A DNA stretch of 64,000 nucleotides from an uncultured Pseudomonadales bacterium (GCA_964414895.1 CAYPXO010000002.1:35211-99210), one strand, 5' to 3'; shown: positions 14,903 to 61,896, numbered from the stretch's first letter. Program-made: numbers and translations. Notes: a model not told the origin generated them from the sequence alone.

Positions 14903-15778
14903 CTAAAATTCCCCTAAAAAGAAAATCTCCGGTTCGAGTTCTATCTTACAGTCCATCTTCACTTTTTTACAAACCAGCTTAATTAATTTTACAACTTGTT
15001 CGGCTTTACCTCCACCAACGTTGATAAAAAAATTAGCGTGTCTCTCACTTATTTTTACCCCTCCTATTTTCTTGCCTTTCAAACCTACTTTATCAATCAA
15101 ATAACCGGCCGATTTACCTTTAGGGTTTTTAAAAATACAGCCAGCTGATTTGCCTTTCGGCTGATTGCTTCTTTCCTTTAATGTTTCCTTTATTTTTCTC
15201 TTCAAAGTACTTTCATTCTCTTTGTTTAATTTAAAACTAGCGCTAAGAACTATCATCCCTTTTTTTCGTAAGCTCGACCAGTCATAAGAAAAATCCAAGT
15301 CCTTCTTTTTAAAAACTTTTCTTTCAAGATTTTTATTTAAAACTTCCACTTTCTCCAAACAGTCGGAAAAAAAGTGATCCTTCCAATGACTGTTATTATA
15401 AACTGCTCCACCAACTGTTCCCGGCAGGCCAGCGAAAAATTCCAAACCTCCTAAACCTCTATTCACCGTTTCTTCTACAATTCTATTCACCATCACTCCT
15501 CCTTCGCAATAGGCTTTCTCATTTTGAATTTTGAATTTTGAATTTTGAATTTTTATTACCAATCCCCTCACTCCCTTATCAGCTACCAATAAATTACTTC
15601 CCCCACCTAAAATATAAAAAGGTAATTTTTTGGCTTTTGCCCAGTTAACGGCTTTGACAATCTGCTGGCTGTTTCTAGCCTCAAAAAAATAATCGGCCGG
15701 CCCGCCAATACCAAAAGTAGTAAAAGGAGCCAAATCAATATCCTTTTTAATCTTGAATTTTAATCTTGAATTTTGCAT
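14903..15778 (-). CDS. murB: UDP-N-acetylenolpyruvoylglucosamine reductase MurB
   Basis: FAD-binding N-terminus FTTFGIGGPADYF...ILGGGSNLL; carries an in-frame (AATTTTG)4 array. Confidence 0.85.
   Translation of the reverse strand: MQNSRLKFKIKKDIDLAPFTTFGIGGPADYFFEARNSQQIVKAVNWAKAKKLPFYILGGGSNLLVADKGVRGLVIKIQNSKFKIQNEKAYCEGGVMVNRIVEETVNRGLGGLEFFAGLPGTVGGAVYNNSHWKDHFFSDCLEKVEVLNKNLERKVFKKKDLDFSYDWSSLRKKGMIVLSASFKLNKENESTLKRKIKETLKERSNQPKGKSAGCIFKNPKGKSAGYLIDKVGLKGKKIGGVKISERHANFFINVGGGKAEQVVKLIKLVCKKVKMDCKIELEPEIFFLGEF
15521..15554. repeat. Heptanucleotide tandem array (AATTTTG/CAAAATT)x4.5 inside murB
   Basis: attttgaattttgaattttgaattttgaattttt; translated in frame as KIQNSKFKIQN. Confidence 0.8.
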
Positions 15779-23362: not shown

Positions 23363-23374
23363 AGGAAAAACAAC

Positions 23375-32102: not shown

Positions 32103-33200
<1,098 letters not shown>

Positions 33201-33223
<23 letters not shown>

Positions 33224-34280
33224 AAACTTCCAGTGTTCTCTCGGCACATTTTCTCCAAGAATACTTCTCAGTTTGCTCTTTTCCCAACTTAATTAATTTC
33301 TCTTTTTCTTTCTTGTTCATCTTTAAAAACTTGTTTATTTTTCTGCTAATATTACCAATATCCTTAGGGTCAAAATAAAAAGCTGCTCTTCCATAAATCT
33401 CTCTAAAAACAGGAATGTTCGAACAAACCACCGGACAACCAAGACTCATCGCCTCCAACCCGGGTAAACCAAAACCTTCCATTAAAGAAGGATTGATAAA
33501 ACAAAGGGCATTTTTATAAAGAGAGACTAATTCTTTGTCCGAAGCCGCCCCATAGAATATAATTTTTTCTTCTAAATTACTCTTTTCCACTGTCTTTTTT
33601 AATCTTTCATAAAAATAATCCTCTGGCCCTACAAATAATAATTTTAAATTTTGAATTTCAATTTTGAATTTGTCATTTTTAATTTTGAATTTATTAAATG
33701 CCTCTATCAACCTCTCTAAATTTTTATGCGGATAAGCATTTCCCACATAAAGTAAGTAGCTGGTAGCTGGTAGCTGGTAGCTGGTAGCTGGCTTTCTCTT
33801 CTTGAACTTTGAATCAACTCCTTCATAAATAACAACTATTTTCTCTGGGCTAACTTTCAAACATCTAACAATCTCTTTCTTAGTTGTCTTAGAAACAGCA
33901 ATAATCTTCTCTGCCTTTCTTGCTCCAATAAAAAGAAGCATTTTATAACAAAAATGTTTTATTTTATAAAACAAGCCCGGAAGACTGCTTGCCCTTCCGG
34001 TTTTAAAACGCCAAGGAATCAAATCATGAATAGTAAGAACAAACTTGCCTGGATAAAAAAGAGGAAAAGAAAAATAAGTAAAGTGAACTAAATTAAAATT
34101 TTTTTTTAGCAACCAAAAAGGAAAGCAGACTTGCTCGGCCAAAGAATGCCAGCGAAATTTTGGCTTAATAAGAATATATTCGTTCCTCTTATTAAACCTC
34201 TTTAATTGATTAAAGAGGTTTTTGGCATATCTTCCAACACCGGTTTGATCTATTAAACGACCATCGATTGCAACTTTCAT
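33201..34280 (-). CDS. Glycosyltransferase family 4 (GT-B); carries an in-frame (TAGCTGG)5 array
   Basis: MKVAIDGRLIDQTGVGRY...EGFGLPGLEAMSLGCPVV; the upstream ORF extension to 34349 is a translation of a GC hairpin island. Confidence 0.7.
33757..33791. repeat. Heptanucleotide tandem array (TAGCTGG)x5 inside a GT4 gene
   Basis: tagctggtagctggtagctggtagctggtagctgg; encodes PATSYQLPATSY. Confidence 0.8.
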
Positions 34281-34286
34281 AAAAAT

Positions 34287-34345
34287 ACCGGGCGGGTCAC
34301 GACCCGCCCCTACTGTAGGGGCGGCCGGTCGGGGGCCCGGCAACA
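34287..34345. repeat. GC-rich tandem hairpin island
   Basis: GGGCGGGTCacGACCCGCCC (9-bp stem), GCCCCTActgTAGGGGC (7-bp stem), GGCCGGTCGGGGGCCCGG. Confidence 0.6.
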
Positions 34346-34350
34346 ACACG

Positions 34351-35250: not shown

Positions 35251-36431
35251 TTTTCTCCTAACTCCTGATAAATCTTGTCCAAATGGGAAGAAATAATCTC
35301 CCAGTTATACTTCTCTTGAACCAGCTTTTTTGCTTTTTTGGCAATCTTCCTTCCTAACAAAGGAGAAGATAATAACCTCAAAGCTTGCTTGGCTAATCTT
35401 TCAGCACTTTTAGCAATTAAAACTTCTTTTTCATTAACAACATCTATACCCTCAATACCAAGAGGGGTGGTAACAACAGGTAAACCAGTCGCCATTGCTT
35501 CCAAAACTTTATATTTTGTCCCCCGACCATTTCTAATAGGAGCTAACAAAACCGAAGCACCGCCAAAAGCTTCCCTTATATCCTCAAGGCTCTCGTCAAC
35601 TTTAATATCCGGTCCGGAGAGTGACTTTATCTCTTTGGTAGGATTTTTGCCTACAATCCAAAGTTGAGCATGAGATAGTTTTCTCTTAATCAACGGCCAA
35701 ATTTTCCGAGCTAAAAAACAGGCAGCATCTTTATTTGGCAACCATTTAAAGTTACCAACAAAAAGGACAGCTGGTTTACTTGGTTTTTTTACCTTCGTGG
35801 CATTAAAAAAATCGCTATCAACCCCGTTGGCAACAACATCTACTTTCACTCCCTTTAATGTTTTTTCAACAATTTTTTTATCTTCAACGGACATTGTTGC
35901 CAAACGAGCCGCTTTTTTCCAATAATGTTTTTCCCAAAACTGAATTTTCAAAACATCGAGAAAAAGTAAAGGCTTGAGAGGCCAAAATTTAAAATTGTGC
36001 ACAAAATTCTCATAAACCAAAGACTCAATCGTTTGCTCAACCAAAAGAATGGGCAAATTGGTTTCCGGCAAATTAGGCATTACATAAAAAGTTTCTGCAT
36101 GAATAAGGTCGTAATTATTCCTTGCCAGCTCCTTCTTAATAAGGCCCTTTAATGACAAAGAAAGATAGATTGCTACCAAAAACGGGTAAGGAGTAAAACC
36201 AGCCAAAGCGAGGTTTTTCCAACTCCAGGCTCGCCTCCTTTGGATAACTTCAACCTTCTTACAATACCTAAGAAGTTCCTTTATATGTTTTTTCTCCTTC
36301 TCTTCCCTAATAAAGGAAAACAAAGTTATCTCATGCTTTAAGCTTAAATTTTTCAAAAGATTGTAAGTCCGAATTTGCCCACCAGAAAGCAAAGGATAAG
36401 GGAAATAAGGGGTAAGCATTAGAATTTTCAA
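35247..36431 (-). CDS. Glycosyltransferase family 4
   Basis: MKILMLTPYFPYPLLSGGQIRTYNL...EGIDVVNEKE... Confidence 0.75.
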   Translation of the reverse strand: MKILMLTPYFPYPLLSGGQIRTYNLLKNLSLKHEITLFSFIREEKEKKHIKELLRYCKKVEVIQRRRAWSWKNLALAGFTPYPFLVAIYLSLSLKGLIKKELARNNYDLIHAETFYVMPNLPETNLPILLVEQTIESLVYENFVHNFKFWPLKPLLFLDVLKIQFWEKHYWKKAARLATMSVEDKKIVEKTLKGVKVDVVANGVDSDFFNATKVKKPSKPAVLFVGNFKWLPNKDAACFLARKIWPLIKRKLSHAQLWIVGKNPTKEIKSLSGPDIKVDESLEDIREAFGGASVLLAPIRNGRGTKYKVLEAMATGLPVVTTPLGIEGIDVVNEKEVLIAKSAERLAKQALRLLSSPLLGRKIAKKAKKLVQEKYNWEIISSHLDKIYQELGEK

Positions 36432-36504
36432 GTCTCGAATGTCAAGTGTTAAGTGTCAAAGTAAGTTCTTTACTGACACTGCCCCTTGAACAAAAATAAC
36501 AAAG

Positions 36505-37965
36505 TTATCTAAAATCACATCTTCGAAGGTCAACAATTGCAAAACTCTCCTGTTCTTCCAATAATAAGCATTGCTTCTTCAAATCTTTCAGCTCCTGATC
36601 CTTCTTAACCGTTACATAAAAACTTGCTCCTTTTTTTATCCTATCTTCAATATTGCCTCCAATCGGCCAGCCTTTTCTTTCGGTTTGATATAAAAAGGCT
36701 GTGTCTCCTCCATAAGGAGCAATTACCTTATCTTCCTCCTGGCTTAGCTTTTTTACTTGTTGGCCGGCAGCCACTATTTCCGGATGATTAATATTAAAAA
36801 AGTCTCTTACTTGATACCAACCAAAAGACTCCATAAACAAAAAGCAGCCAGCAGCCAGCAGCCAGCAGCCAAGGGAACTGAATATCTTTCGTGCTTCCTT
36901 TAACAAAAATAAAACCCCTCGAGCCAGAAAAATACAAACAACTGGAATGATTAAAATCTGATAATAGTCGTGGCGAACATTGCCAGTAGCTACTACTGCT
37001 AAATAAGCCAAACAGCTCAAAAACCAAAAATGAAAAAGGTAGCTTGACTTCTGGGAAGCTTTTCTTAAAAGACCAAAAGCCAAAAAAATCACCCCCCAAT
37101 AGCCCAAAATTAATTTAGCAAGCCTTTCGGCAAATAACCAATAAAACCAAGCTCCTTTAAAACGAATCTCATCACCGTTTAAAAGCCACATATTGGCGGG
37201 AATTCCTTCAGGGAACTGCTGAATCCAAAGCCGCCAGACAGCAAAAGGCAACAACCCAATAAATAAATAAATAAATAAGCCAATAAATAAATAAAGTTTT
37301 TTCTTAGATTGAAAAAACTTTTTAATAAAAATATATAAAACCGGTGGCAATATCAAAAAAAGAGCAAACGGTTTAAGAAGTAGAGCAATTATAAAAAAAA
37401 TAGAAGAAAGAAAGAAATTGAAAATTGAAAATTGAAAATTGAAAATTGAATTTGTTCCCTTTATAAAAAAATAAACAGAACCTAAACTCGTTGCTATCAT
37501 CATCGGCTCAGGCAAAATCACTCGGTTGTAATAAATGTTGTAAGGCAGAACTGCATAAAAAAAAGCTGTTATTAAAGCAAGAGGCAAACCAGCAATTTCA
37601 CCAACAATTAAAAAAAGGAAAATTATTGTTCCTAACGAAAAGAAAATTGACAATAATCTTCCTCCCGTCTCAAAACTAACAAATGAAAAAAGCTTGAAAA
37701 AAAGGCTGTGTAAAAAGGCAAAGATGGGAAACTCCACCATCCGGTATCCTTGAGGGTTCTCTTGTCCTGAAGCAATAGTGGATAAATCATCATACTTTGG
37801 TTTTAGAAGGTCAATTTCTTGATTGACAAAATTCCTTGCCACTGCCGCCGTATCTGCTTGACGCCAAGAATGCCAATCGGCCAAAGGAGCAGTTATCCTA
37901 TAAGTCCTTAAAATAAAAGCTAAAACCAAAATCAATAAAAGAAAAGCAAATTCTTTTTTAAACAT
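36505..37965 (-). CDS. GT-C fold membrane glycosyltransferase (GT39/GT83, ArnT/PMT-like) carrying three in-frame repeat arrays
   Basis: N-terminal WRQADTAAVARNF motif region, more than 10 TM helices; contains (GAAAATT)4.5, (CAGCCAG)3.7 and CCAATAAATAAATAA x2. Confidence 0.55.
   Translation of the reverse strand: MFKKEFAFLLLILVLAFILRTYRITAPLADWHSWRQADTAAVARNFVNQEIDLLKPKYDDLSTIASGQENPQGYRMVEFPIFAFLHSLFFKLFSFVSFETGGRLLSIFFSLGTIIFLFLIVGEIAGLPLALITAFFYAVLPYNIYYNRVILPEPMMIATSLGSVYFFIKGTNSIFNFQFSIFNFFLSSIFFIIALLLKPFALFLILPPVLYIFIKKFFQSKKKLYLFIGLFIYLFIGLLPFAVWRLWIQQFPEGIPANMWLLNGDEIRFKGAWFYWLFAERLAKLILGYWGVIFLAFGLLRKASQKSSYLFHFWFLSCLAYLAVVATGNVRHDYYQILIIPVVCIFLARGVLFLLKEARKIFSSLGCWLLAAGCFLFMESFGWYQVRDFFNINHPEIVAAGQQVKKLSQEEDKVIAPYGGDTAFLYQTERKGWPIGGNIEDRIKKGASFYVTVKKDQELKDLKKQCLLLEEQESFAIVDLRRCDFR
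36844..36873. repeat. Heptanucleotide tandem array (CAGCCAG)x3.7
   Basis: cagccagcagccagcagccagcagcc; in frame (WLLAAGCWLL). Confidence 0.75.
37255..37295. repeat. Tandem duplication CCAATAAATAAATAA(ATAAG) x2 with (AAAT)n
   Basis: ccaataaataaataaataagccaataaataaataaag; encodes the duplicated LFIYLFIG. Confidence 0.7.
37414..37453. repeat. Heptanucleotide tandem array (GAAAATT)x4.5
   Basis: gaaattgaaaattgaaaattgaaaattgaaaattgaattt; encodes FNFQFSIFNF in frame. Confidence 0.85.
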
Positions 37966-39637
37966 GACTCTTTCTTGCTTTTAATTTTAGGACAACTAAT
38001 AAAACTGCCATCAATCCCCAAAAAGTGAAAGCTACTTTTGAAGCTTCAAAAACATCAATATAGGCAGCATTAACCAAAATTGCTACAATTCCTCCCATCA
38101 TCCCAGCTACCAAAGCGGAAAAAAATCTATCCCTAATTCGCCTAAAAGAAAAATAACTAATCTTCAAAATCAAAGCGATAATAACAAAAAAGCTCATAAA
38201 ACCAAAAAGTCCTGTTTCTCCCAAAGCCCGAAGATAATCATTGTCTGTTGACTCTGCTTCGGTAAAATCACTAACTTTCTCTTTAGTTAAGGTTGAATAG
38301 CCAGAACCAAAGAAAGGATTTTTTAAAAAGCCTCTAATTGCTTTTGGCCAGAGGGAATCAAAACGAATAGCCGAAGATAAGCCAACAGCAAAAGCAGTTG
38401 GTGAATAGTCACGGGGCACTTTGACAACGGCTGTTTCTGTTGCCTCGTCTTGGCCTTTAAATAGATCTTCTCCTTCCTTCGCGCTCGGCGTGCTAACAAC
38501 ATCAGGAATGTCCTCATAAACATCAGGGGGCAATTTTCTTTTCTTTTCACCATCGCCTTCAGTTCCATCTTTAACAACAATCTTTGGCGGTTGATCTGAT
38601 CGAGAATAAACCAAATCTAGATCTCCTTCCAAGACAATATATCTTAAGTCTTTCTCTTCTATCCCAAATATCTTCTCTTTCACCAAATAACCAATCAAAT
38701 AATCATCCCAAAAATCAACTTTTAAAAAATCGGCAAATCTCTCTGAAAGATCGCCGCCCCAAAAAAACATCACCAAAAAACTAAAGCAAACAACTGTCAA
38801 CCAACGTGATAAACCCCAAAAAATCTTTCTTTTTTCAATCTTTAGGGCTAAAAGGCCAATAGAAACAGAAATCCCTATTAGGTAAGCAATAAAAGAAGTC
38901 CGCGAAGCAGTATAAATGAGCAAAAAGAAACTAACAAAAAAAACAACAAAAAAGAAAAATCTCTTCTTTTCGTCTTTTATAAAAATAGCCAAGCTTGCAA
39001 AAAGCGTTAAGAAAAAAGCCAAATAAGCGGCTAAATCATAGTGCCCGGCAAAAGTCGAAGGAATCCGAGCGTGTTCGGTTAAAACCAAGCGCCAGCCTTT
39101 AGAAAACTCTCTATTCATTGTTGAGTAAACCGGCCAACCAAAAAATTTCTGCCCAAAACCGTAAAAAGAAATAAACATAAGAGTAATTCCTAAAAAAACA
39201 ACCAGTCTTTTAATCTGATTTGAGTCTTTAATCGCTGAATAAAGAATAAAAAACAAAGACATATATTCAACTCTTCTCAGAAAGTGCAAAACTAGTTTAC
39301 TTATATGAATTAGCTGAAAGGGGACCGTTTTACTGATTAAAACGGCATAGAATGAAGAAAAAAGACCAACCGCTAAATACACGCCAATCGGCACCAATAA
39401 AGGATTAGGGAAAATTTTTACCTTTTTCCTTAAAACTTGAATTAAGCAAACTAAAAAAACAAAAGCTACTAAAAAATCTTCAATTCTCACTCTAACTATA
39501 TAACCGGGCAGAACATCAAAAAGCGGCCATTTAGGGTAAAGAGGAATAAAAACTAGTAAAAAAGTGGCTAAAACAAACAAAAGATTCTCTTCAAGCCACT
39601 TTGAAAGCCTGCCAATAGATTTTCTTTTTTTCTTCAT
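37958..39637 (-). CDS. O-antigen ligase/polymerase-like polytopic membrane protein
   Basis: About 12 TM helices with a large periplasmic loop and TASRTSFIAYLIG segment; family assignment tentative. Confidence 0.4.
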   Translation of the reverse strand: MKKKRKSIGRLSKWLEENLLFVLATFLLVFIPLYPKWPLFDVLPGYIVRVRIEDFLVAFVFLVCLIQVLRKKVKIFPNPLLVPIGVYLAVGLFSSFYAVLISKTVPFQLIHISKLVLHFLRRVEYMSLFFILYSAIKDSNQIKRLVVFLGITLMFISFYGFGQKFFGWPVYSTMNREFSKGWRLVLTEHARIPSTFAGHYDLAAYLAFFLTLFASLAIFIKDEKKRFFFFVVFFVSFFLLIYTASRTSFIAYLIGISVSIGLLALKIEKRKIFWGLSRWLTVVCFSFLVMFFWGGDLSERFADFLKVDFWDDYLIGYLVKEKIFGIEEKDLRYIVLEGDLDLVYSRSDQPPKIVVKDGTEGDGEKKRKLPPDVYEDIPDVVSTPSAKEGEDLFKGQDEATETAVVKVPRDYSPTAFAVGLSSAIRFDSLWPKAIRGFLKNPFFGSGYSTLTKEKVSDFTEAESTDNDYLRALGETGLFGFMSFFVIIALILKISYFSFRRIRDRFFSALVAGMMGGIVAILVNAAYIDVFEASKVAFTFWGLMAVLLVVLKLKARKSHV

Positions 39638-40403
39638 TGCCTAATAGTATACCAAAAATAAAAATCCTTAGGAGAGCTCCAATCTTCAATAAAAGTTCAA
39701 GAATAACTTTTTCCCAAGAAGGTTTGTGTTTTTCAAAAAACAGCTTTAATCCCTTATATTCTGCCAAGATCGCTTTTTGAGATAAACTTCTAGGGCTTGC
39801 CTCTTTATAATGGATAATTTCCGGCTCCGGCACATAAAAAACTCGAAAGTCCTTTTTCTTGGCCCGAAAACAAAAATCGACTTCTTCGGCATACATAAAA
39901 TAGTCTTCATCAAAGCCACCAATTTCCTCCACTAATTTTCTCTTGGTTAACAAGAAGGCTCCGGTCACCCAATCAACTTTTCTCTGCTTTCTGTAAAAAC
40001 TTCTCCTCTGTTGGTGATAAGGCTTTAAAAAGAGATTAAAAACAGGCAAGTCATCTAAAAAAAACATCATATAAAAAATCTGGCGCAGTTTTGGGAAAAA
40101 ACCGGCTGATGGTTGGAGTGTCCTGTCTTTGTTTAAAAGCTTGCAACCCAAAATATCAATCTTCTCATTTTTATCTATTATTTTTACTGCCCTTTCTATT
40201 GCTTTTTCCAAAACAACTGTATCCGAGTTTAAAAAAAGAACATATTCACCCTTTGCCTTTCCAATCGCCTGATTACATGCTTTAGCAAACCCCAAATTTT
40301 TTTTGTTTCGGATAAGCCTAATATTTAAGCTTGCATATTTCTTCTTGACACTTGACACTTGACACTTGACACTATAATCCGATCCATTATCAACAACGAT
40401 CAC
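39591..40403 (-). CDS. Glycosyltransferase family 2 (GTG start per ORF track; the conserved N-terminus LTLTIIIPSFNTKEYLEDCIRSI continues in frame to 40520 without a canonical start)
   Basis: VVDNGSD...; in-frame upstream codons encode the typical GT2 IIIPSFN motif and run to a TGA lying inside the class I element end. Confidence 0.7.
   Translation of the reverse strand: MIVVDNGSDYSVKCQVSSVKKKYASLNIRLIRNKKNLGFAKACNQAIGKAKGEYVLFLNSDTVVLEKAIERAVKIIDKNEKIDILGCKLLNKDRTLQPSAGFFPKLRQIFYMMFFLDDLPVFNLFLKPYHQQRRSFYRKQRKVDWVTGAFLLTKRKLVEEIGGFDEDYFMYAEEVDFCFRAKKKDFRVFYVPEPEIIHYKEASPRSLSQKAILAEYKGLKLFFEKHKPSWEKVILELLLKIGALLRIFIFGILLGNEEKKKIYWQAFKVA
40344..40373. repeat. Heptanucleotide tandem array (GACACTT)x4
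   Basis: cttgacacttgacacttgacacttgacact; encodes SVKCQVSSVK in frame. Confidence 0.8.
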
Positions 40404-40518
40404 TTCATAATCGATCCCTTTTGTCTCTCGCCATATGGAACGAATACAGTCTTCTAGATATTCTTTAGTATTAAAACTAGGGATGATGATGGTAAGAGTT
40501 AGTTGAGAAATTCTATTT

Positions 40519-40594
40519 TGTCATTCCTGCGAAAGCAGGAATCTATAAAAATAAATATTATCTGTATAGATTCCTGATCAAATCAGGAATGACC
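40519..40594. repeat. Class I nested-palindrome (REPIN-like) element, copy C
   Basis: TGTCATTCCTGCgaaaGCAGGAATCTATAAAAataaatattatcTGTATAGATTCCTGATcaaATCAGGAATGACC. Confidence 0.75.
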
Positions 40595-40601
40595 ACGAAG
40601 T

Positions 40602-41198
40602 TCACTGAAAAAGTCTTGCTCTGCCTAAACGATAATCAAGTTTCTTTACTTTTCTTTTACCAATCTCTTTGGCGGGAACGCCGCCAACCATTGTCAGCGG
40701 AGCAACATTTTCGGTGACAACGGCACCAGCGGCCACTACTGCTCCTTTACCAATCTTTACTCCCGGAAGAATAACTGCTCTCGCACCGACAAAAACATAA
40801 TCTTTTATCTCCACCGGCTCTTCTATGGGAGCAAAGTCTTCACTGCTAATATCATGCTCGCTGTTGTAAATTAAAACTTGAGAAGCAATCGCTACATGAC
40901 TGCCAATTTTTAAAGAGGCCCGGCCGTCCAAAAAACAATGATCTCCAATAATTGTTCCCTCGCCGATTTCGATATTTTTCGGCTGGAAAAATCTTGCCGC
41001 CATATGTATTGTTGAACCCTTGCCCATTTTGATCCCAAAGAAACTATAAACAACCCTTCGAAAAAGATGACTAGGAATATATCCCGTCCATCTTAGAACC
41101 AGCAAAACAAAATCAAGATAGTAGTTATAAAACCTATTTATGATTTTCGGCCAAGCTTGGCTTAATGTTAATTTATTTCCCATGCGATCGTAAAACAT
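40602..41198 (-). CDS. Hexapeptide-repeat (LbH) acetyltransferase
   Basis: Repeated [LIV]G..x..I hexapeptides; GAVVAAGAVVTENVAPLTMVGGVPAK. Confidence 0.75.
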   Translation of the reverse strand: MFYDRMGNKLTLSQAWPKIINRFYNYYLDFVLLVLRWTGYIPSHLFRRVVYSFFGIKMGKGSTIHMAARFFQPKNIEIGEGTIIGDHCFLDGRASLKIGSHVAIASQVLIYNSEHDISSEDFAPIEEPVEIKDYVFVGARAVILPGVKIGKGAVVAAGAVVTENVAPLTMVGGVPAKEIGKRKVKKLDYRLGRARLFQ

Positions 41199-41241
41199 AA
41201 TTTATTTCTTGTACAATAAATTGCGCCACTACAAAAAGCCC

Positions 41242-42336
41242 TTAATTATCAGTAGTCTTCTGCAAAACCCTTATTGTCTTTTTGGCACATTTCTCCCAAG
41301 AGAATTTTTTTACTTGCTGCAAACCTTTTTTTATTAAATTATTCCTTTCCCTTTGCTTTGATTTTAACATCTTTGACAAACTTTTATAAATCGAATTATC
41401 AGAATAAGGGTTTTCAATATAAACCGCCGCCTCCCCTGCCACCTCAGGCAGGGAAGAAGTCTTGCTGGTTACAACCGGACAGCCGGCTGCCATTGCTTCA
41501 AGCACTGGTATGCCAAAGCCTTCATAGAGTGAAGGGTAAACAAAGCATAAGGCATTCTTTAATAAAGCTTGTTTTTCTTTTTCGCTGACAAAACCGGTAA
41601 AAATAACTTCTTTTTCTAAACCTAACTGTTTTACTTTATTAAATATCTCTTTGTAAAGCCAACCCTTCTTTCCAGCTATTACTAATTTAGTATTTAGGGA
41701 TAAGTATTTAGTATTTAGGGAAGCGAAAGCTTCTATAAGACGAGTGAGGTTTTTTCTGGGCTGGAGAGTGCCGAGGTAAAGAAGATAATTGCTAGCTGGT
41801 AGCTTTTTAAATTCATTCTTTATTCTTGATTCTTTATTCTTGATTCTTTTACTTAGTCCCGGATAAGTAACGGTAATTTTCTCCTCCGGATAATCATAAA
41901 AATGGATAATCTCCTTTTTAGTAAACTCTGAGATGGTAAAAATATGAGCCGCTTTTTTAATTGAATACCTTGTCCAGTTTTTTAGCTGCCAAAGATCGCT
42001 CTTTTTAAACTGCTCAGGAAAACGCCAGAAAGCTAAATCCATAATAGAAATCACCCTTGGGCAAGAAGAAAACCGAGGAGCATAATGACCCGGAGTAAAA
42101 AATAAATCCGGTTTAGGCCGCAAAAAGAATAATTCCAAAGGCAGCCGCCACTGCGTCCACCATAACCCCGGCCGCAAAACCTTATATCGCCACCAACCTG
42201 TCTCTTTAGGTAAATCATCTAAAAGTTTATCTTTCAAAAAAATTTTGAATTTTAAACTGCAATCCTGCCTGCCGGCAGGCAAGGTTTTAATTTTTAATTT
42301 TTCATTTTTAATTTGTCTATATATTTCCCACAACAA
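41242..42336 (-). CDS. Glycosyltransferase family 4, paralog a (tandem duplicate of 42515-43693)
   Basis: C-terminal half identical to paralog b (YLLYLGTLQPRKNL...EGFGIPVLEAMAAGCPVVTSKTSSLPEVAGEAAV). Confidence 0.75.
   Translation of the reverse strand: MLWEIYRQIKNEKLKIKTLPAGRQDCSLKFKIFLKDKLLDDLPKETGWWRYKVLRPGLWWTQWRLPLELFFLRPKPDLFFTPGHYAPRFSSCPRVISIMDLAFWRFPEQFKKSDLWQLKNWTRYSIKKAAHIFTISEFTKKEIIHFYDYPEEKITVTYPGLSKRIKNKESRIKNEFKKLPASNYLLYLGTLQPRKNLTRLIEAFASLNTKYLSLNTKLVIAGKKGWLYKEIFNKVKQLGLEKEVIFTGFVSEKEKQALLKNALCFVYPSLYEGFGIPVLEAMAAGCPVVTSKTSSLPEVAGEAAVYIENPYSDNSIYKSLSKMLKSKQRERNNLIKKGLQQVKKFSWEKCAKKTIRVLQKTTDN
41682..41721. repeat. 21-bp tandem duplication TAAGTATTTAGTATTTAGGGA x1.9
   Basis: Encodes the duplicated KYLSLNT in the GT4-a interdomain linker. 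Confidence 0.75.
41814..41848. repeat. Heptanucleotide tandem array (ATTCTTK)x5
   Basis: attctttattcttgattctttattcttgattcttt; encodes RIKNKESRIKNE. Confidence 0.75.
42263..42283. repeat. Class II core palindrome CCTGCCTGCCGGCAGGCAAGG inserted in frame near the GT4-a N-terminus
   Basis: Encodes LPAGRQDCS; paralog b has NCNA at the homologous position. Confidence 0.7.
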
Positions 42337-42416
42337 CTCATAAGAATAAACATTACTACCTACTCTTTCTTTTATATTCGCTTCGTTACCGTCAATGGCA
42401 ATAAAAATAGTAGTTA

Positions 42417-42449
42417 GTAGTTAGTAGTTAGTAGTTAGGGATCCTCTGT
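42417..42449. repeat. Heptanucleotide tandem array (TAGTAGT)x4.5, intergenic, abutting class I half-element D
   Basis: tagtagttagtagttagtagttagtagttaggg. Confidence 0.8.
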
Positions 42450-42455
42450 CATTCC

Positions 42456-42496
42456 TGGCTCCGACCAGGAATCTATACAAATAAATCTTATTACTT
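42456..42496. repeat. Class I half element (solo REP-like hairpin), copy D
   Basis: TGTCATTCCTGGctccgaCCAGGAATCTATACAAATAAATC with no right half. Confidence 0.65.
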
Positions 42497-42514
42497 ACCC
42501 TCAACCACTGACTA

Positions 42515-43693
42515 TCAACTACCTACTTCCTCATAAACTTTTAGTGTTTCCCTTGCACATTTTTCCCAAGAGAATTTTTTTACTTGCTGCAAACCTTTTT
42601 TTCTTAGATTGCTTTGCAACCGTTTACTTCCCAAAACTTTTTTAATTGCTAAACCAATTTCATCGACCTTCTGCGGATTAACTAAAACCGCCGCCTCCCC
42701 TGCCACCTCAGGCAGAGAAGAAGTCTTGCTGGTTACAACCGGACAGCCGGCTGCCATTGCTTCAAGCACTGGTATGCCAAAGCCTTCATAGAGTGAAGGG
42801 TAAACAAAGCATAAGGCATTCTTTAATAAAGCTTGTTTTTCTTTTTCGCTGACAAAACCGGTAAAAATAACTTCTTTTTCCAAACCTAACTCTTTTACTT
42901 TATTAAATATCTCTTTGTAAAGCCAACCTTTCTTTCCAGCCATTACTAATTTTAGATCTTCAAGTTTTTTTGTTTTTGAGTTTGTGTTTTTGGTTTTTGG
43001 TTTTTGGTTTTTAACATTGGCAAATGCTTTGACTAGCCTAATGAGGTTCTTCCTAGGCTGGAGGGTGCCTAAATAGAGTAAGTAATTGTTGCTAATATTA
43101 TATTTTTTCTTAATAGCTTTAAGCTTTGCGCTGTGGCTTTGCGCTTTGAGCTTTGCGCTTTGAGTTTTTCCTAAATATACTATCCTGATTCTTTCTTCAC
43201 TGAAACCCAACAAACTAACCAAATCATCTTTAGTCGCCTTTGAGTCGGCTATTACTAAATCAGACTCCTCTTTTACCCAGTAAAGCCGCCTTTTCTGCGT
43301 TTTGATAATCTTTTTAGGAAAAGTTTCCGGAAAGTGCAAAAAAGACAAATCATGAACTGTAGTTACTTTTTTTGCCCTTGTTGGCGGTTGTATCCAATCC
43401 GAGGAATGAAAAATGTCAACTCTTCCAATCAACCTCTCAACTTCTAAAAGATGTAGCTTATTCCATAGAAATTCTAGAGGCGTCGGAGGAATAGGAAAAA
43501 TTTTAAATTTTGCATTGCAGTTTTTAATTTTACATTTTAAATTTTGAATTTTCTCTCTTTGCCTTAAAGAATAACCCAAAAAAATATACTCGTTCTTTTT
43601 ATCAATTCTTAAAAGATTATCTACCAGCTTTTCAGTATAACGGCTAACGCCTGTCTGGTAAACTATTTGACTAATATCAATCCCTATTTTCAT
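42515..43693 (-). CDS. Glycosyltransferase family 4, paralog b
   Basis: MKIGIDISQIVYQTGVSRY...; the linker is encoded by repeat arrays (TTTTTGG and GCTTTGCGCTTTGAG). Confidence 0.75.
   Translation of the reverse strand: MKIGIDISQIVYQTGVSRYTEKLVDNLLRIDKKNEYIFLGYSLRQREKIQNLKCKIKNCNAKFKIFPIPPTPLEFLWNKLHLLEVERLIGRVDIFHSSDWIQPPTRAKKVTTVHDLSFLHFPETFPKKIIKTQKRRLYWVKEESDLVIADSKATKDDLVSLLGFSEERIRIVYLGKTQSAKLKAQSHSAKLKAIKKKYNISNNYLLYLGTLQPRKNLIRLVKAFANVKNQKPKTKNTNSKTKKLEDLKLVMAGKKGWLYKEIFNKVKELGLEKEVIFTGFVSEKEKQALLKNALCFVYPSLYEGFGIPVLEAMAAGCPVVTSKTSSLPEVAGEAAVLVNPQKVDEIGLAIKKVLGSKRLQSNLRKKGLQQVKKFSWEKCARETLKVYEEVGS
42966..43012. repeat. Degenerate heptanucleotide array (TTTTTGG)n
   Basis: tttttgtttttgagtttgtgtttttggtttttggtttttggttttt; encodes KNQKPKTKNTNSKTKK. 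Confidence 0.7.
43116..43166. repeat. About 15-bp tandem array GCTTTGCGCTTTGAG x3
   Basis: Encodes SAKLKAQSHSAKLKA. Confidence 0.7.
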
Positions 43694-43775
43694 CTTTCTC
43701 GCCTTCTAAAACCTAATATATTTTTTAAAAAGAGCAAAGCTGTCTATTTTTAAATACATCATGGAGTGAGCTCTT

Positions 43776-44546
43776 TTATTTAATTCTCCCTTCTATTTTA
43801 ACAAAAAATATCTGCCGATAATAAGGCGGCTTATCCCAAAGCTTAAAAAAAGGAATCAAAAACAAAAAAATCTTTCTAAATAAAAAATCAACAAAAATAT
43901 TTTTTGTCATCCAACCCTTCATTAAAAAATTTCTCAAGCCTAAATTTTCATTACCCTGAATTTTAATTCCGACTTTCTTTTTTTCTCTTTTTGCTGCTAA
44001 TTTAATTAATTGAACTATTTCTTCTTTCTTTGGCAAACCATATTCCAAATGCTCTTTAAAAAAAGAAAAAGGCTGCTTAAAAACCTGTTGGTATCTTTTA
44101 TCTAATTTTTTATCTTGAATAAAACTTTTCTTTCCACAAGGAACAGCTATAAAAACCTCTCTTTTTGCCACCCGTAGAACTTCTCTTATCGCTTTTTCCC
44201 TTTTTGTCTTCTGCAAGTGTTCCAGAACATCAACACAAACAACAAAATCAAAACTATCTCTTTTAAAGGGTAGCTTTAAAACGCTTCCCTTTATCTGCTT
44301 TAACAAACCAAACTTCCTTCCTTCAAAATCCTCATCCAAACCAACAACCTCTTTTCCTAAATAAGGAGCAATCCCCAGCCACCCCGACCCCACTTCAAGA
44401 ATAGAAATTTCTTTGACACTTGACACTTGACACTTGACACTTCTTGCTATCGGCCAGTATCTAATCGCTACTTCTGGATGCCAACGAAAAAAATTGAAAA
44501 TTGAAAATTGAAAATTGAAAATTTTATTTACGATACTCATAAACAA
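43776..44546 (-). CDS. Class I SAM-dependent methyltransferase (type 11-like)
   Basis: ILEVGSGWLGIAPYLG motif I, DFVVCVDVLEHL motif; the N-terminus carries the (GAAAATT)4.5 and (GACACTT)4 arrays. Confidence 0.6.
   Translation of the reverse strand: MFMSIVNKIFNFQFSIFNFFRWHPEVAIRYWPIARSVKCQVSSVKEISILEVGSGWLGIAPYLGKEVVGLDEDFEGRKFGLLKQIKGSVLKLPFKRDSFDFVVCVDVLEHLQKTKREKAIREVLRVAKREVFIAVPCGKKSFIQDKKLDKRYQQVFKQPFSFFKEHLEYGLPKKEEIVQLIKLAAKREKKKVGIKIQGNENLGLRNFLMKGWMTKNIFVDFLFRKIFLFLIPFFKLWDKPPYYRQIFFVKIEGRIK
44413..44442. repeat. Heptanucleotide tandem array (GACACTT)x4
   Basis: ttgacacttgacacttgacacttgacactt. Confidence 0.8.
44487..44525. repeat. Heptanucleotide tandem array (GAAAATT)x4.5
   Basis: aaaattgaaaattgaaaattgaaaattgaaaatttt. 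Confidence 0.85.
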
Positions 44547-46084: not shown

Positions 46085-46921
46085 CTAATAATAGCCTTTA
46101 AACAATATCTTCTCCAATAAACCAACAAATGAACCAAAATCAAAAACAATTTTAAAAATTAAAAACTCCGCTTTATTAAACCAAACTGCTTTAAAAAAAC
46201 TAATTATTAAAGAAATCGGTAAAAAAGATTTAAGCAGATGAAAAAAATCGCCTAACACTCCCCCTTTATATTTTCTTTTTGCCCGCCATTTGGCTTGAAA
46301 GAAAACCTCTCTTAAATTCTCCGGATTATAATGATAATAGAAAGCTCCTTTGGCCAAACTAGCTTTGTAACCTAGTTTTTCACTCAAACTCCAGTCATCG
46401 GTGTAGCCAGTTTTTTCAAAGCCGCCTGCTTTGAGAAACTCAGATTTTAAAATCGCCCGAAAAACTGGCGAACGGTTGGGATAATTTCTAGGGATTTTTC
46501 TTTTATTCTTAAGCCCAAAATTATAGTTCCAGCATTTTGCCCAAAGATTGCTCCAGTTGGCCACATATTCATCTTTAGAAAAAGTCCCTTTAACCCTTCC
46601 TTGTTTAATTGGTTGAATTAGATTTTTAATAAAATTTTTATCAAAAACCATATCACTATCAACAAAAACTAAAATCTCTCCTTTTGCCTGTTTGGCTCCC
46701 AAATTCCTCGCCGCCCCCGCACCCTTATGTTTCTGTCTAAAAATTGAAAATTGAAAATTGAAAATTGAAAATTCTGACAAAATATCTGATATTTTGTCAG
46801 TGCTCCCATCATCAATTACAACAATTTCCAAGTCTTTAAAAGTCTGTTTTTTTAAACTTTCAAGGCACTCTGGCAAATATCTATATTTATTATAAACAGG
46901 AATAATTACGGAAACTTTCAC
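46085..46921 (-). CDS. Glycosyltransferase family 2; carries an in-frame (GAAAATT)4.5 array
   Basis: MKVSVIIPVYNKYRYL...VVIDDGSTD. Confidence 0.75.
   Translation of the reverse strand: MKVSVIIPVYNKYRYLPECLESLKKQTFKDLEIVVIDDGSTDKISDILSEFSIFNFQFSIFRQKHKGAGAARNLGAKQAKGEILVFVDSDMVFDKNFIKNLIQPIKQGRVKGTFSKDEYVANWSNLWAKCWNYNFGLKNKRKIPRNYPNRSPVFRAILKSEFLKAGGFEKTGYTDDWSLSEKLGYKASLAKGAFYYHYNPENLREVFFQAKWRAKRKYKGGVLGDFFHLLKSFLPISLIISFFKAVWFNKAEFLIFKIVFDFGSFVGLLEKILFKGYY
46738..46773. repeat. Heptanucleotide tandem array (GAAAATT)x4.5
   Basis: aaaattgaaaattgaaaattgaaaattgaaaattc; encodes EFSIFNFQFSIF. Confidence 0.85.
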
Positions 46922-60291: not shown

Positions 60292-61896
60292 TGAAATTGC
60301 ACAAAATCTTACTAGCTTAAATATAAAAACCAATAAGGCCAATAAATAAACAGCCAATAGAACCACCAAGTAATATCCCTTAGCAAACCAGGGCTTATAT
60401 TGACTGGCTTGAATGATAAACTTTCTAAAATTTGACAGATCATAATAAGAGCCGATCACCCAAAAAAAGGCAAAAGAGTTTATAAAAATAAACCATAAAC
60501 AGAGCGAAAAGCGAAAAGCGAAAAGCGAAAAGCGAATTATTTTTTTATTTATTTTTAAAACTCTCCTTATTATTCTCACAATCAAAGCCCAAAAAGTTTC
60601 CAAACCTACAACTAATAAAATTATATGAGGAATAATTACTGGAAAATAATACCTGCCTTGAATTCCAAAAGAAAAACCATGAGCTCGAAAAAAACACCAA
60701 TCCCAAACAAAAAGAGCAAAGAAATAAACTAAAGCAGTGTAAAAAATAAAAAGTAAAAGCAAATTTTGTCTATTAAACCGCCTGTTTTTTGCTAATAAAA
60801 ACTTTATTAATAACCCGACAAGCCCAGCGGCCAAAAGACGCATCAAAACTCGGTTGATCCACCTTGGTAAAACTAAAGACAGCCAACGAAAGACTCCCCA
60901 ATACCAGGGAATCACTTCTTTTATTGTATGCCTCACCGTCCAGCCAAAGTGCTTCCAAATACTATAATTCTTGAGTGAAGGCAAAACATTATAATCAAAA
61001 TAAGGAAGTTCTCCGGAGAATATAGATTTAACCAAAGCGTATATCAAACCCTCCCTAAACTTCACAATTATCAATACAAAAATAAGTAAAAATAATAACT
61101 TCAAAAACAATCTACGCCTATAAAGAACTAAAAATATAACTGGCACTAAAATAATAGCAAGTCCTACAAGAAAATTATGCTTTGTAAAAGAACCAAAAAT
61201 GAAACAAGTTAGCAATAAAGATAAATTAACTAAATTAGGTTTTGCCATCAATAAAATTGAAAAACAAATCAAGCCACTGAAAAACAAATTTAAAATGTTG
61301 TCTATGGAAACTCCAGAACTTACAAAAGTAAACATCGGATGAAAAGAAACTAATAAAGGAACAGTAAGTTGATATTCTACTTTGCTGGGAAAAATTTCTT
61401 TAGCAATCAAAAAAGATAAATAAACCATCAAAACAATAGAGAAAAGCCAAAAAATTCTTATCACAAAAACCCGAACAAACAAATTCTCATAATAAAATAA
61501 TTTATAAACCAATCCGGAAATTTTATAAAAAAAAGAATTATAAGCTGCTGCTTCTTTCCCGACAAAGTCCTTCCGGGTCGAAAGAGGAACATTTTTAATT
61601 TCCTCTTCTCTTAATCCAAAGGAATCATCCGAATATCCAATATTGAACTCTGGATGATAAGTAAATTTATTATTACCCCCGCCGTCCCGTTTAGTTCCCA
61701 GGATTTTTTCAGAAAGCAAAATTTCCTCAGAAAGATTCAAGCCCTGCCCAATTGATTCACCTCCTTCGGCTAAATACTCTACATGGGCAAAATGAGCCTG
61801 TTCGTCAGGAAAATGCCAAAGAGGAATAAAAAAAGACCAAACTAAACCTTTTAAAAAAGTAATTGCAATAATTAAAAATAGTAATCGTTTCATCAT
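60241..61896 (-). CDS. Polytopic membrane protein with PDE..HF motif (GT-C/DUF2142-like), paralog 2
   Basis: IPLWHFPDEQAHFAHVEYLAE; the C-terminal residues (HSEILCHPERSEGSP) are translated from class I element F; carries a (GCGAAAA)4 array. Confidence 0.4.
   Translation of the reverse strand: MMKRLLFLIIAITFLKGLVWSFFIPLWHFPDEQAHFAHVEYLAEGGESIGQGLNLSEEILLSEKILGTKRDGGGNNKFTYHPEFNIGYSDDSFGLREEEIKNVPLSTRKDFVGKEAAAYNSFFYKISGLVYKLFYYENLFVRVFVIRIFWLFSIVLMVYLSFLIAKEIFPSKVEYQLTVPLLVSFHPMFTFVSSGVSIDNILNLFFSGLICFSILLMAKPNLVNLSLLLTCFIFGSFTKHNFLVGLAIILVPVIFLVLYRRRLFLKLLFLLIFVLIIVKFREGLIYALVKSIFSGELPYFDYNVLPSLKNYSIWKHFGWTVRHTIKEVIPWYWGVFRWLSLVLPRWINRVLMRLLAAGLVGLLIKFLLAKNRRFNRQNLLLLFIFYTALVYFFALFVWDWCFFRAHGFSFGIQGRYYFPVIIPHIILLVVGLETFWALIVRIIRRVLKINKKIIRFSLFAFRFSLCLWFIFINSFAFFWVIGSYYDLSNFRKFIIQASQYKPWFAKGYYLVVLLAVYLLALLVFIFKLVRFCAISCHSEILCHPERSEGSP
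60504..60538. repeat. Heptanucleotide tandem array (GCGAAAA)x4.5
   Basis: gcgaaaagcgaaaagcgaaaagcgaaaagcgaatt; encodes FAFRFSLC in frame. Confidence 0.8.

What the first reader, a model, noticed from the sequence alone, without database searches (positions are those of the whole stretch)
40344..44442. A set of at least nine distinct heptanucleotide tandem arrays concentrated in the glycosylation island: candidate contingency (phase-variation) repeats
The arrays, each 3.7-5 copies and almost all inside GT, GT-C or methyltransferase coding sequence (one is intergenic), are:
- (GACACTT)4 at 40344 and 44413
- (TAGCTGG)5 at 33757
- (CAGCCAG)3.7 at 36844
- (ATTCTTK)5 at 41814
- (TAGTAGT)4.5 at 42417
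- (TTTTTGG)n at 42966
- (GCGAAAA)4.5 at 60504
- (GAAAATT)4.5 at three sites
A 7-bp unit changes the reading frame on gain or loss of a single copy, which is the classical mechanism of phase-variable surface-glycan genes in pathogens. Heptameric units are also the hallmark of cyanobacterial STRR repeats. Here they sit in frame in coding DNA of an AT-rich genome, which is unusual.
Basis: partly seen in the sequence, partly recalled or inferred. Interest (0 to 1): 0.7.

Follow-up and report, generated by a model that had tools for sequence, protein, structure and literature searches.

The report
In-frame seven-base repeats inside genes
Short runs (4-5 copies) of 7-base units are read in frame inside many genes of this candidate-phyla-radiation bacterium and its relatives, essential enzymes included, so they look like a lineage-wide repeat-forming habit filtered by selection, not on/off switches for surface sugars.

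Summary
The window holds 11 perfect period-7 arrays of at least 3 copies (none at periods 6 or 8-15; 0 expected) plus about 8 decayed ones. They are roughly 10-fold concentrated in the glycosylation island, above all at 32.6-46.8 kb. The contingency-locus reading is not supported. All 17 coding arrays are in frame and only 4-5 units long. One lies in essential murB, where it encodes an ordered beta-hairpin without changing protein length. At that hairpin, more than half of 120 Patescibacteria MurB homologues carry heptanucleotide-derived 7-residue periodic peptides with different units; none of about 50 non-CPR orthologues does. GT4 homologues and a syntenic relative carry arrays at the same two linker/loop positions, again with different units. 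(AAAATTC)4-5 arrays occur in frame in GatA, PriA, DnaG, PolA, PGK, Fmt, aaRS and Mur ligase genes in metagenomes. The best reading is STRR-like heptanucleotide microsatellites that form and turn over, often length-neutrally, at tolerant protein positions, filtered for stop-free units. The generating mechanism is unresolved: AT-rich arrays inside GC-rich genes and identical arrays in several genes leave room for a cassette-like or templated process. No population data were available, so some incidental phase variation cannot be excluded.

The parts
15521..15553 (-). (AAAATTC)4.7 inside murB (14903-15778); encodes KIQNSKFKIQN
   Evidence: Gap-free against orthologues. The same array is at the same codons in L002. 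Ordered beta-hairpin, pLDDT 93-96.
32613..32650 (-). (AACTGGM)5.4 (14-nt super-unit) in GT4 32099-33247, inter-domain linker (site A)
   Evidence: The L084 orthologue has (AATCAAT)4.9 at the same site. Crossed intact by Logan contig L228.
33640..33692 (-). Decayed (AAAATTC)-type array in GT4 33201-34349, site B (helix end and loop)
   Evidence: 7 residues (3 units) longer than the L084 orthologue. pLDDT 69.
33756..33791 (-). (CCAGCTA)5.1 in GT4 33201-34349, site A linker; encodes PATSYQLPATSY
   Evidence: Gap-free against L084, which has (CAAAATA)5.3 there. Lowest-confidence linker, pLDDT 56.
36428..36459 (-). Decayed (TTGACAC)4.6 directly 5' of the start codon of GT4 35247-36431; reverse complement of the GTGTCAA unit used in coding arrays
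36843..36871 (-). (TGGCTGC)4.1 in GT-C/PMT_2 gene 36505-37965; encodes LGCWLLAAGC
37415..37450 (-). (CAATTTT)5.1 in GT-C gene 36505-37965; encodes SIFNFQFSIFNF
   Evidence: Replaces a same-length loop of the L084 orthologue.
40344..40373 (-). (AGTGTCA)4.3 in GT2 39591-40511, just after the VVDNGS motif; encodes SVKCQVSSVK
   Evidence: Same GT2 site as the arrays in L091, L149, L176 and L194. Crossed intact by Logan contig L227.
41685..41718 (-). Decayed (CTAAATA)4.9 in GT4 41242-42408, site B
41815..41849 (-). (AAGAATM)5 in GT4 41242-42408, site A linker
42285..42314 (-). (AAAATTA/AAAATGA)4.3 in the N-terminal part of GT4 41242-42408, followed by a 21-nt GC-rich palindrome (42262-42282, LPAGRQ) and then AAAATTC-type units again
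42408..42438 (-). (CTAACTA)4.4 abutting the 5' end of GT4 41242-42408 (contains TAA, so it cannot be coding); preceded by a hairpin element
42966..43012 (-). (AAAAACC)6.7 (3.9 perfect copies) in GT4 42515-43693, site B
43116..43168 (-). (CAAAGCK)~6 in GT4 42515-43693, site A linker
43498..43552 (-). Decayed (AAAATTY)8 in the N-domain of GT4 42515-43693
44413..44442 (-). (AGTGTCA)4.3 in methyltransferase 43776-44546, before motif I; encodes SVKCQVSSVK
   Evidence: Length-neutral against homologues.
44490..44523 (-). (CAATTTT)4.9 at the extreme N-terminus of methyltransferase 43776-44546
46740..46773 (-). (CAATTTT)4.9 in GT2 46085-46921, after DDGSTD; encodes FSIFNFQFSIF
   Evidence: Logan contig L001 ends here.
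60503..60536 (-). (TTCGCTT)4.9 in DUF2142 membrane protein 60241-61896

Best explanation
The arrays are STRR-like heptanucleotide microsatellites. They are a property of this Patescibacteria (Microgenomates-type) lineage and of some other bacterial genomes, and they are not dedicated switches. Shown: (a) the DNA forms period-7 arrays and no other period; (b) in coding DNA only stop-free units, in the sense orientation and in frame, are seen, each read in all three phases as a 7-residue periodic peptide; (c) they occupy a limited set of protein positions (MurB beta-hairpin, GT4 inter-domain linker and the following loop, the GT2 segment after the DxD region, the methyltransferase N-terminus, GT-C loops), and these positions recur in distant relatives; (d) at those positions the unit changes between relatives, usually with no or little change in protein length; (e) arrays are capped at about 5 units. 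Inferred: a replication or repair misalignment process with a 7-nt step (slipped-strand mispairing, plus transient misalignment that copies the neighbouring unit and realigns) creates and homogenises arrays without a frameshifted intermediate. Selection then removes everything except stop-free, in-frame, structurally tolerated arrays, and removes long arrays because they would throw off frameshifts. Glycosyltransferase genes accumulate arrays because they offer many tolerant linkers and evolve fast. Any phase variation would be a by-product.
For: Period-7 specificity in the window. Same specificity in CPR relatives and in 757 kb of array-bearing metagenome loci: 7.3 per 100 kb against 0.4 at periods 5, 6 and 8. 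Control phyla have 0.37 per 100 kb. MurB: the array is gap-free against orthologues; perfect (AAAATTC)5 at the same codons in a genome with 46% MurB identity; (GAAATTC)3.9 in L003; (CAAACTA)4.6 in L015; 70 period-7 peptide runs in 120 homologues against 3/9/12/26 at periods 5/6/8/9, most at this one site; none in about 50 non-CPR orthologues; 28 of the 70 are exact three-frame readings of a single heptamer, against a 0.4% background; unit types are scattered on the tree. GT4: 78 period-7 runs against 1-14 at other periods, at the same two sites. The syntenic island L084 has 9 of 12 tandem-repeat rows at period 7, with arrays at orthologous sites but different units. Flanks about 90% identical at the nucleotide level carry (CAAAATA)5 in one genome and (AAATCAK)5 in another. 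Essential hosts are confirmed by Pfam. GatA and ValRS pairs of 67% and 58% identity share the array site. Structure: ordered hairpin in MurB, low-confidence linker and loop in GT4. The methyltransferase arrays are length-neutral. All 17 coding arrays are in frame. Literature: heptameric SSRs are over-represented in many bacteria, with polymerase slippage proposed (PMC4692102).
Against: 26 of 120 (AAAATTC)~4.9 arrays lie in locally 50-67% GC coding DNA, e.g. an 11-residue insert in DnaG of a 63% GC contig; a local seed for such an AT-rich array is improbable there. Identical 34-nt arrays occur in three genes and identical 30-nt arrays in two genes of the window. Array length is nearly constant (mode 34 nt) whatever the phase of the ends. 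These points fit a cassette-like or templated process better than local slippage. Tolerance alone does not explain why 19 of 23 island arrays lie in 14.8 kb while GT genes at 47-62 kb, and 8.8 kb beyond the window, have almost none. No direct measurement of slippage or of the proposed length-neutral conversion exists.
Confidence: 0.55

Rival explanations
1. Contingency loci. Gain or loss of one 7-nt unit by slipped-strand mispairing switches individual glycosyltransferase and methyltransferase genes off and on, diversifying the surface glycan within the population.
For: The unit length is not a multiple of 3. Arrays are about 10-fold enriched in the glycosylation island. Several sit near 5' ends: the methyltransferase at residues 9-20 and 36-45, the GT2s at about residue 45-60. 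Two arrays abut start codons. A precedent exists in neuO. Four of eight Logan contig ends fall on arrays.
Against: All 17 coding arrays are ON. There are only 4-5 units, against 3-53 at neuO. Identical types of array lie in essential genes. Orthologous sites differ by unit replacement, not copy number. Many arrays are decayed yet still in frame. Five arrays have the same copy number in an independent assembly of run SRR14802572. The other four contig ends lie on hairpins or a T-run, so the breaks are probably graph artefacts.
Confidence: 0.12
2. Written cassettes. Heptamer blocks of about 30-36 nt are inserted or converted into DNA by a dedicated or semi-specific process (a mobile mini-element, ectopic gene conversion between arrays, or break repair with reiterative or templated synthesis), and selection keeps the in-frame, stop-free ones.
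For: AT-rich (AAAATTC)~4.9 blocks occur inside 50-67% GC genes, including an 11-residue insert in DnaG. Identical arrays occur in 3 and in 2 window genes. Array length has a narrow mode (34 nt) and there are few arrays of 6 or more units. Different heptamer arrays are juxtaposed (L100, L132, L141). Small GC-rich palindromes lie inside arrays, as at window 42262-42282 and in L003 MurB. From memory, this recalls the small dispersed repeats of Nostoc (Elhai et al. 2008; the paper could not be read).
Against: Array ends have no fixed phase, and no target-site duplication or flank similarity is seen. Most arrays replace sequence of equal length, which simple insertion does not do. No candidate enzyme lies nearby except a Y1 transposase at 1003-1638, which is more plausibly linked to the hairpin elements. 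Genomes with one unit carry many other units.
Confidence: 0.2
3. Functional nucleic-acid sites. The heptamers are binding sites for a single-strand nucleic-acid-binding protein (Csp-, S1- or CsrA-like) or otherwise tune translation or transcription, as proposed for TAACTGA repeats.
For: Two arrays lie directly 5' of GT4 start codons. [quoted passage not shown] Positions persist across relatives despite unit change.
Against: There are at least 12 different units in one 64-kb window, with no shared motif beyond what the stop-codon filter imposes. 17 of 19 arrays are internal to coding sequence. Units change freely between close relatives.
Confidence: 0.08
4. Assembly or sequencing artefact of a metagenome-assembled genome.
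For: The source is an uncultivated-lineage assembly, and k-mer contigs break at arrays.
Against: Reading frames are preserved through every array. An independent Logan assembly of run SRR14802572 reproduces the sequence at 99.8-100% identity, including five arrays. The same phenomenon appears in NCBI, ENA, JGI and Logan data from many projects.
Confidence: 0.02

Closest known systems
neuO of E. coli K1 (CUS-3 prophage O-acetyltransferase): heptanucleotide (AAGACTC)n phase variation
   Same: A 7-nt unit inside the coding sequence of a surface-glycan-modifying enzyme, translated in all three phases; full-length protein only when the frame is kept (PMC13001214).
   Different: neuO has 3-53 copies, 65.6% of genomes are OFF, and +/-1 variants are measurable within a culture. 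Here there are 4-5 copies and all 17 are ON. The same arrays occur in essential genes, many are decayed, and relatives differ by unit, not by count.
Cyanobacterial STRR and TAACTGA-type heptamer direct repeats (Calothrix, Nostoc, Beggiatoaceae, some Bacteroidetes; GGGAATC in Xanthomonas)
   Same: Strictly period 7; several unit families per genome; 2-6 copies typical; often just upstream of start codons; no known mechanism (PMC4679880, PMC4692102). The control cyanobacterial loci show a similar density (3.4 per 100 kb).
   Different: Those repeats are mainly intergenic. Here 17 of 19 are in frame inside genes, at protein positions that recur across a phylum-level radiation, in small-genome CPR bacteria.
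Long SSRs of 5-11 bp in prokaryotes (the 2007 survey cited as ref. 33 in PMC4692102; its content is partly recalled from memory)
   Same: [quoted passage not shown] They are interpreted as a general tendency to expand, possibly tied to the polymerase footprint, not as an adaptive switch.
   Different: That work does not, to my knowledge, describe orthologous-site persistence, length-neutral replacement, or in-frame arrays in essential enzymes.
In-frame mini-insertions: Rickettsia palindromic elements and Nostoc small dispersed repeats (from memory; Elhai 2008 is listed in the references of PMC3116915)
   Same: Tiny repeated DNA tolerated in frame within protein genes. GC-rich 21-nt palindromes here sit inside heptamer arrays.
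   Different: Those are defined-sequence, hairpin-forming elements with fixed ends. The arrays have no fixed ends, are not palindromic and mostly replace sequence instead of inserting.
Hypervariable 9-mer (PTD) repeat gene of a Gracilibacterium (PMC6851277)
   Same: A CPR genome with a perfect coding tandem repeat prone to slippage.
   Different: It is one gene with a 9-nt unit (always in frame) and a long, population-variable array. Here there are many genes with a 7-nt unit and short arrays.

Membership tests
SSR-mediated contingency (phase-variable) loci | Repeat unit not divisible by 3, lying in a coding region or promoter so that +/-1 unit changes expression | tested here: met
   The 7-nt units lie inside ORFs, and two arrays abut start codons. 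This feature is necessary but not sufficient.
SSR-mediated contingency (phase-variable) loci | Copy number varies within populations and between strains | not testable with these tools
   No close strains exist: nearest homologues are 58-62% identical and cluster sizes are 1. Logan contigs of one run agree with the window at five arrays.
SSR-mediated contingency (phase-variable) loci | A mixture of in-frame (ON) and out-of-frame (OFF) alleles among loci and genomes | tested here: not met
   17 of 17 coding arrays are in frame. 78 of 125 metagenomic arrays lie in long intact ORFs. At neuO 65.6% of genomes are OFF.
SSR-mediated contingency (phase-variable) loci | Confined to dispensable, mostly surface or host-interaction genes | tested here: not met
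   An array lies in murB here. Others lie in GatA, PriA, DnaG, PolA, PGK, Fmt, aaRS and Mur ligase genes elsewhere.
Heptanucleotide STRR / long-SSR class | Tandem arrays strictly of period 7, over-represented relative to neighbouring periods | tested here: met
Heptanucleotide STRR / long-SSR class | Several different unit sequences in one genome | tested here: met
   At least 12 units occur in 64 kb.
Heptanucleotide STRR / long-SSR class | Predominantly intergenic or 5'-UTR location | tested here: not met
   17 of 19 arrays are coding. Only 36428 and 42408 are 5' of genes.
Mobile in-frame mini-elements (RPE / SDR / MITE-like) | Defined sequence with conserved ends and/or a hairpin, and target-site features | tested here: not met
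   Array ends are in variable phase, there is no target-site duplication, and the arrays are not palindromic.
Mobile in-frame mini-elements (RPE / SDR / MITE-like) | Present as an insertion relative to orthologues that lack it | tested here: inconclusive
   Insertions: +7 residues at GT4 site B and about +11 residues in DnaG of L154. Equal-length replacements: MurB, GT4 site A, GT-C and the methyltransferase.

The most novel reading that the evidence does not exclude
Heptanucleotide blocks of about 33 nt are actively written into genomes by an unrecognised templated or reiterative process (break repair, conversion or a mobile cassette). The process works across GC contents and repeatedly installs 11-residue hairpin or linker modules at the same positions of proteins, essential enzymes included. 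That would be a new class of coding micro-element, with CPR bacteria as heavy users and glycosyltransferase linkers as its main playground.
Probability: 0.15. Interest if true: 0.85.

Novelty: new variant of a known kind. Interest (0 to 1): 0.6.

Why it matters
First, it removes a tempting but unsupported annotation. These arrays should not be scored as phase-variable glycan genes in CPR genomes without population evidence. Second, it exposes a poorly understood phenomenon in a tractable form. Period-7 repeats are known to be over-represented in bacteria and nobody knows why. Here they are embedded in essential, well-folded proteins (the MurB hairpin, GatA, DnaG, PolA) at positions that recur across a huge radiation while the unit turns over. 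That gives natural replicates for inferring how such arrays are born, homogenised and capped, and for asking whether a length-neutral or templated mechanism exists. Third, there are practical consequences: the arrays break short-read assemblies, create 7-residue periodic peptides that look like low-complexity noise in protein databases, and mark hypervariable linkers in glycosyltransferases.

Tried and rejected
1. 'Seed + 3 units' quantisation. The (AAAATTC) set seemed to cluster at 4-5.3 and 7-8.3 copies, but the pooled data show arrays of 3, 4 and 5 units alike (bumps at 20, 27 and 34 nt). I do not rely on quantisation.

2. Logan contig breaks as evidence of polymorphism. All 8 ends lie on arrays, hairpins or a T-run, and the 5 mismatches are in a GC-rich palindrome. 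This is uninformative.

3. Paralogue comparison of GT4 41242 and 42515 as a clock for array turnover. The segment between the arrays is itself only about 78% identical, so the comparison is not clean.

4. Arrays as recombination sites for GT domain shuffling. The four GT4 linker arrays all use different units, so this is not supported.

5. Frameshifted ('OFF') genes. GT2 39591, GT4 41242 and mraW looked N-terminally truncated, but their frames continue upstream to ATT/ATA codons without a frameshift.

I used it as a control set instead.

8. Elhai 2008 could not be read. Literature searches linking CPR with heptanucleotide repeats found nothing.

9. The viral-contig hits were not analysed.

Full report
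OBSERVATION. Tandem Repeats Finder and an exact-periodicity scan find 11 perfect period-7 arrays of at least 3 copies in the 64-kb window. There are none at periods 6 or 8-15 and one at period 5. Markov-1 and Markov-4 simulations of the window give 0.0 at period 7.

GENE MAP. Pfam annotation of every long ORF shows three blocks, almost all on the minus strand. A dcw/mur cell-wall cluster runs from about 1 to 24 kb. A few housekeeping genes follow at 24-30 kb. A glycosylation island runs from about 30.4 to 62 kb. Ten of the 11 perfect arrays, and 23 of 25 TRF period-7 arrays, lie in the island (P=0.005 and 8e-6). Nineteen of the 23 are inside 32.1-46.9 kb. A further 8.8 kb of the same genome to the right has no heptamer arrays. 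A further 2.2 kb to the left has two, both intergenic.

ANATOMY. On the coding (minus) strand, 17 arrays are read in frame, so each unit is translated in all three phases as a 7-residue periodic peptide. Examples are KIQNSKFKIQN in MurB, SVKCQVSSVK in a GT2 and a methyltransferase, and FNFQFSIFNF in a GT-C, a GT2 and the methyltransferase. The four GT4 paralogues carry different units at the same two positions: just before the YLLYxG strand, and after the LIEAF helix. Two arrays are not coding but abut GT4 start regions: (CTAACTA)4.4, which contains TAA, and a decayed (TTGACAC) array. Both methyltransferase arrays lie inside sequence that aligns with homologues and are roughly length-neutral.

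STRUCTURE. AlphaFold models place the MurB array in a confidently predicted beta-hairpin (strands 70-77 and 82-85, pLDDT 93-96). They place the two arrays of GT4 33201-34349 in the inter-domain linker (pLDDT 56) and in a helix end plus loop (pLDDT 69).

SOURCE AND RELATIVES. The window comes from an NCBI assembly (contig 108 kb). The nearest MurB and GT4 homologues are only 58-62% identical, and those that carry names are Microgenomates or Patescibacteria. Independent Logan contigs of run SRR14802572 are 99.8-100% identical to the window.

THE DECISIVE COMPARISON: MurB. The murB array is not an insertion, since it aligns without gaps to orthologues. A genome whose MurB is 46% identical (L002, 41% GC) has a perfect (AAAATTC)5 at the same codons. 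L003 has (GAAATTC)3.9 there, interrupted by a 21-nt GC-rich palindrome. L015, a Wildermuthbacteria genome, has (CAAACTA)4.6. Among 120 MurB homologues there are 70 period-7 peptide runs, against 3, 9, 12 and 26 at periods 5, 6, 8 and 9. Most lie at this one hairpin and derive from related units: AAAATTC, AAAATAC, AAATGTC, AAAAGTC and AATTTTC. Twenty-eight runs are exact three-frame readings of a single heptamer, against a 0.4% background. None of about 50 non-CPR orthologues shows this. Unit types are scattered over the MurB tree.

GT4 AND THE SYNTENIC ISLAND. The same holds for GT4. There are 78 period-7 runs in 120 homologues, against 1-14 at other periods, at the same two sites and with the same vocabulary. 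A syntenic island in GCA_040960095.1 (L084) has 9 of 12 tandem-repeat rows at period 7. Its arrays sit at orthologous linker sites but use different units. In a trio whose flanks are about 90% identical at the nucleotide level, the linker array is (CAAAATA)5 in two members and (AAATCAK)5 in the third. Relative to L084 orthologues, the window's arrays are mostly equal-length replacements (GT4 site A, the GT-C loop). One is exactly 7 residues longer.

BREADTH. Copy number peaks at 4.6-5.3 (mode 34 nt), and arrays of 6 or more units are rare. Of 125 arrays, 78 lie in stop-free sense spans of at least 120 codons. Pfam confirms hosts such as GatA (two genomes, same site), PriA, DnaG, DNA polymerase I, PGK, Fmt, class-I aaRS and a Mur ligase. 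Four GT2 genes carry the array at the same post-DxD site as the window's two GT2s. Loci holding one such array are enriched for heptamer arrays of many other units (7.3 per 100 kb against 0.4 at periods 5, 6 and 8), in every GC class. Control loci from other phyla have 0.37 per 100 kb, cyanobacteria 3.4, CPR dcw loci 3.5, and the window's island 32.

INTERPRETATION. A contingency-locus reading predicts long, copy-variable tracts, a mix of ON and OFF alleles, and restriction to dispensable genes. The genuine heptanucleotide switch neuO shows 3-53 copies, and 65.6% of genomes are OFF (PMC13001214). Here there are 4-5 units, 17 of 17 arrays are ON (P about 1e-8 under neuO-like proportions), the same arrays occur in essential genes, and relatives differ by unit replacement. 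The unit vocabulary is one C followed by an A-run, as in TCAAAAT, TCAAATG and TCAATTT. That is what remains in an AT-rich genome once TAA, TAG and TGA are forbidden in all three phases (inference). I therefore read the arrays as STRR-like heptanucleotide microsatellites, filtered by selection to stop-free units, in-frame lengths and tolerant positions. Heptamer over-representation in bacteria, with polymerase slippage proposed as the cause, is known (PMC4692102). So are intergenic heptamer repeats next to start codons (PMC4679880). I found no description of in-frame, position-persistent arrays in CPR genomes.

MECHANISM: SHOWN AND INFERRED. Shown: period-7 specificity, sense-strand and in-frame filtering, site recurrence, unit turnover, frequent length neutrality, and a cap near 5 units. 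Inferred: a 7-nt-step misalignment process. I suggest that transient misalignment, which copies the neighbouring unit and then realigns, could extend and homogenise arrays without frameshifted intermediates. That would explain arrays in essential genes and equal-length replacement.

Not explained by this: 26 of 120 AT-rich arrays sit in locally 50-67% GC genes, including an 11-residue insert in DnaG. Identical arrays occur in several window genes. Block length is nearly constant while end phase varies. The arrays are sharply localised to 32-47 kb. These facts keep a cassette-writing or templated process alive as a rival, at about 0.2.

LIMITS. There are no population or strain-level data. Logan contig breaks at arrays are uninformative, because every break lies on some low-complexity feature. 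The metagenome sample is biased to one unit and contains some non-bacterial contigs; L164, for example, carries TTTAGGG arrays. Statements about the 2007 SSR survey, Elhai 2008 and the Rickettsia palindromic elements rest partly on memory.

VERDICT. The contingency interpretation is not supported, and the STRR analogy is apt. This is a new (coding, position-persistent, CPR-wide) variant of a known kind of repeat, of moderate to high interest because it makes the old question of why heptamers predominate directly testable.

Noticed in passing
window 23282-23300 (mraW), 40505-40523 (GT2 39591-40511), 42400-42423 (GT4 41242-42408): Three genes have no ATG/GTG/TTG at their true N-terminus. Their frames run up to ATT/ATA codons just downstream of the same hairpin element (...CAGGAATGACA). 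This could mean non-canonical initiation tied to that element, or silenced genes.
   Followed up: partly
window 23290-23365, 40520-40595, 42445-42480: A composite palindromic element, GTCATTCC-loop-GGAATCTATA...TATAGATTCC-loop-GGAATGACA, lies upstream of mraW, the GT2 and (as a half copy) the GT4. The motif ATTCCTG-N-CAGGAAT occurs 4 times against 0.01 expected.
   Followed up: partly
window 9850-9871, 20293-20310, 42262-42282, 58623-58649, 34303-34349; L003:10248-10268: GC-rich palindromes (CCTGCCTGCCGGCAGGCAGG and relatives; 13 matches against 0.67 expected) occur in intergenic DNA. They also occur in frame inside genes as 'LPAGRQ' or 'PALPAGR', twice embedded within heptamer arrays. One (34303-34349) creates a spurious N-terminal ORF extension.
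   Followed up: partly
window 1003-1638: A Y1 (IS200-like) transposase gene lies next to ftsZ. It might be a REP-associated transposase for the palindromic elements.
   Followed up: no
window 41242-41650 versus 42515-42920: The two adjacent GT4 paralogues share about 270 nt at roughly 98-99% identity (a gene-conversion tract). The tract starts exactly at the 3' edge of their differing site-B arrays.
   Followed up: partly
L154:4316-6145, L100, L130, L174, L169, L195: The AT-rich (AAAATTC)~4.9 array occurs in frame inside genes of 60-68% GC contigs (e.g. DnaG), sometimes next to arrays of other heptamers such as (TTGCTGG)n. Composition clashes strongly with the host.
   Followed up: partly
L208-L225 (IMG/VR): 18 viral contigs, several labelled as giant-virus MAGs, carry (AAAATTC) arrays of 4 or more copies. 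One (L214) has at least 12 copies.
   Followed up: no
whole window: Nearly all genes are on the minus strand, and GC skew is uniformly negative on the plus strand until about 62 kb, where both the skew sign and the gene orientation flip. This may be a replication-related boundary.
   Followed up: no
window 10032-11291: The DegT/DnrJ aminotransferase matches its Pfam profile in two separate stretches, which suggests an internal insertion. I did not examine it.
   Followed up: no
L229:10238-10335 (about 2 kb left of the window): Two more heptamer arrays of the same genome, (AAATCCC)4.6 and (TTGAAAA)3.4, lie in the intergenic DNA after an IleRS-type gene, right where the Logan contig ends.
   Followed up: no
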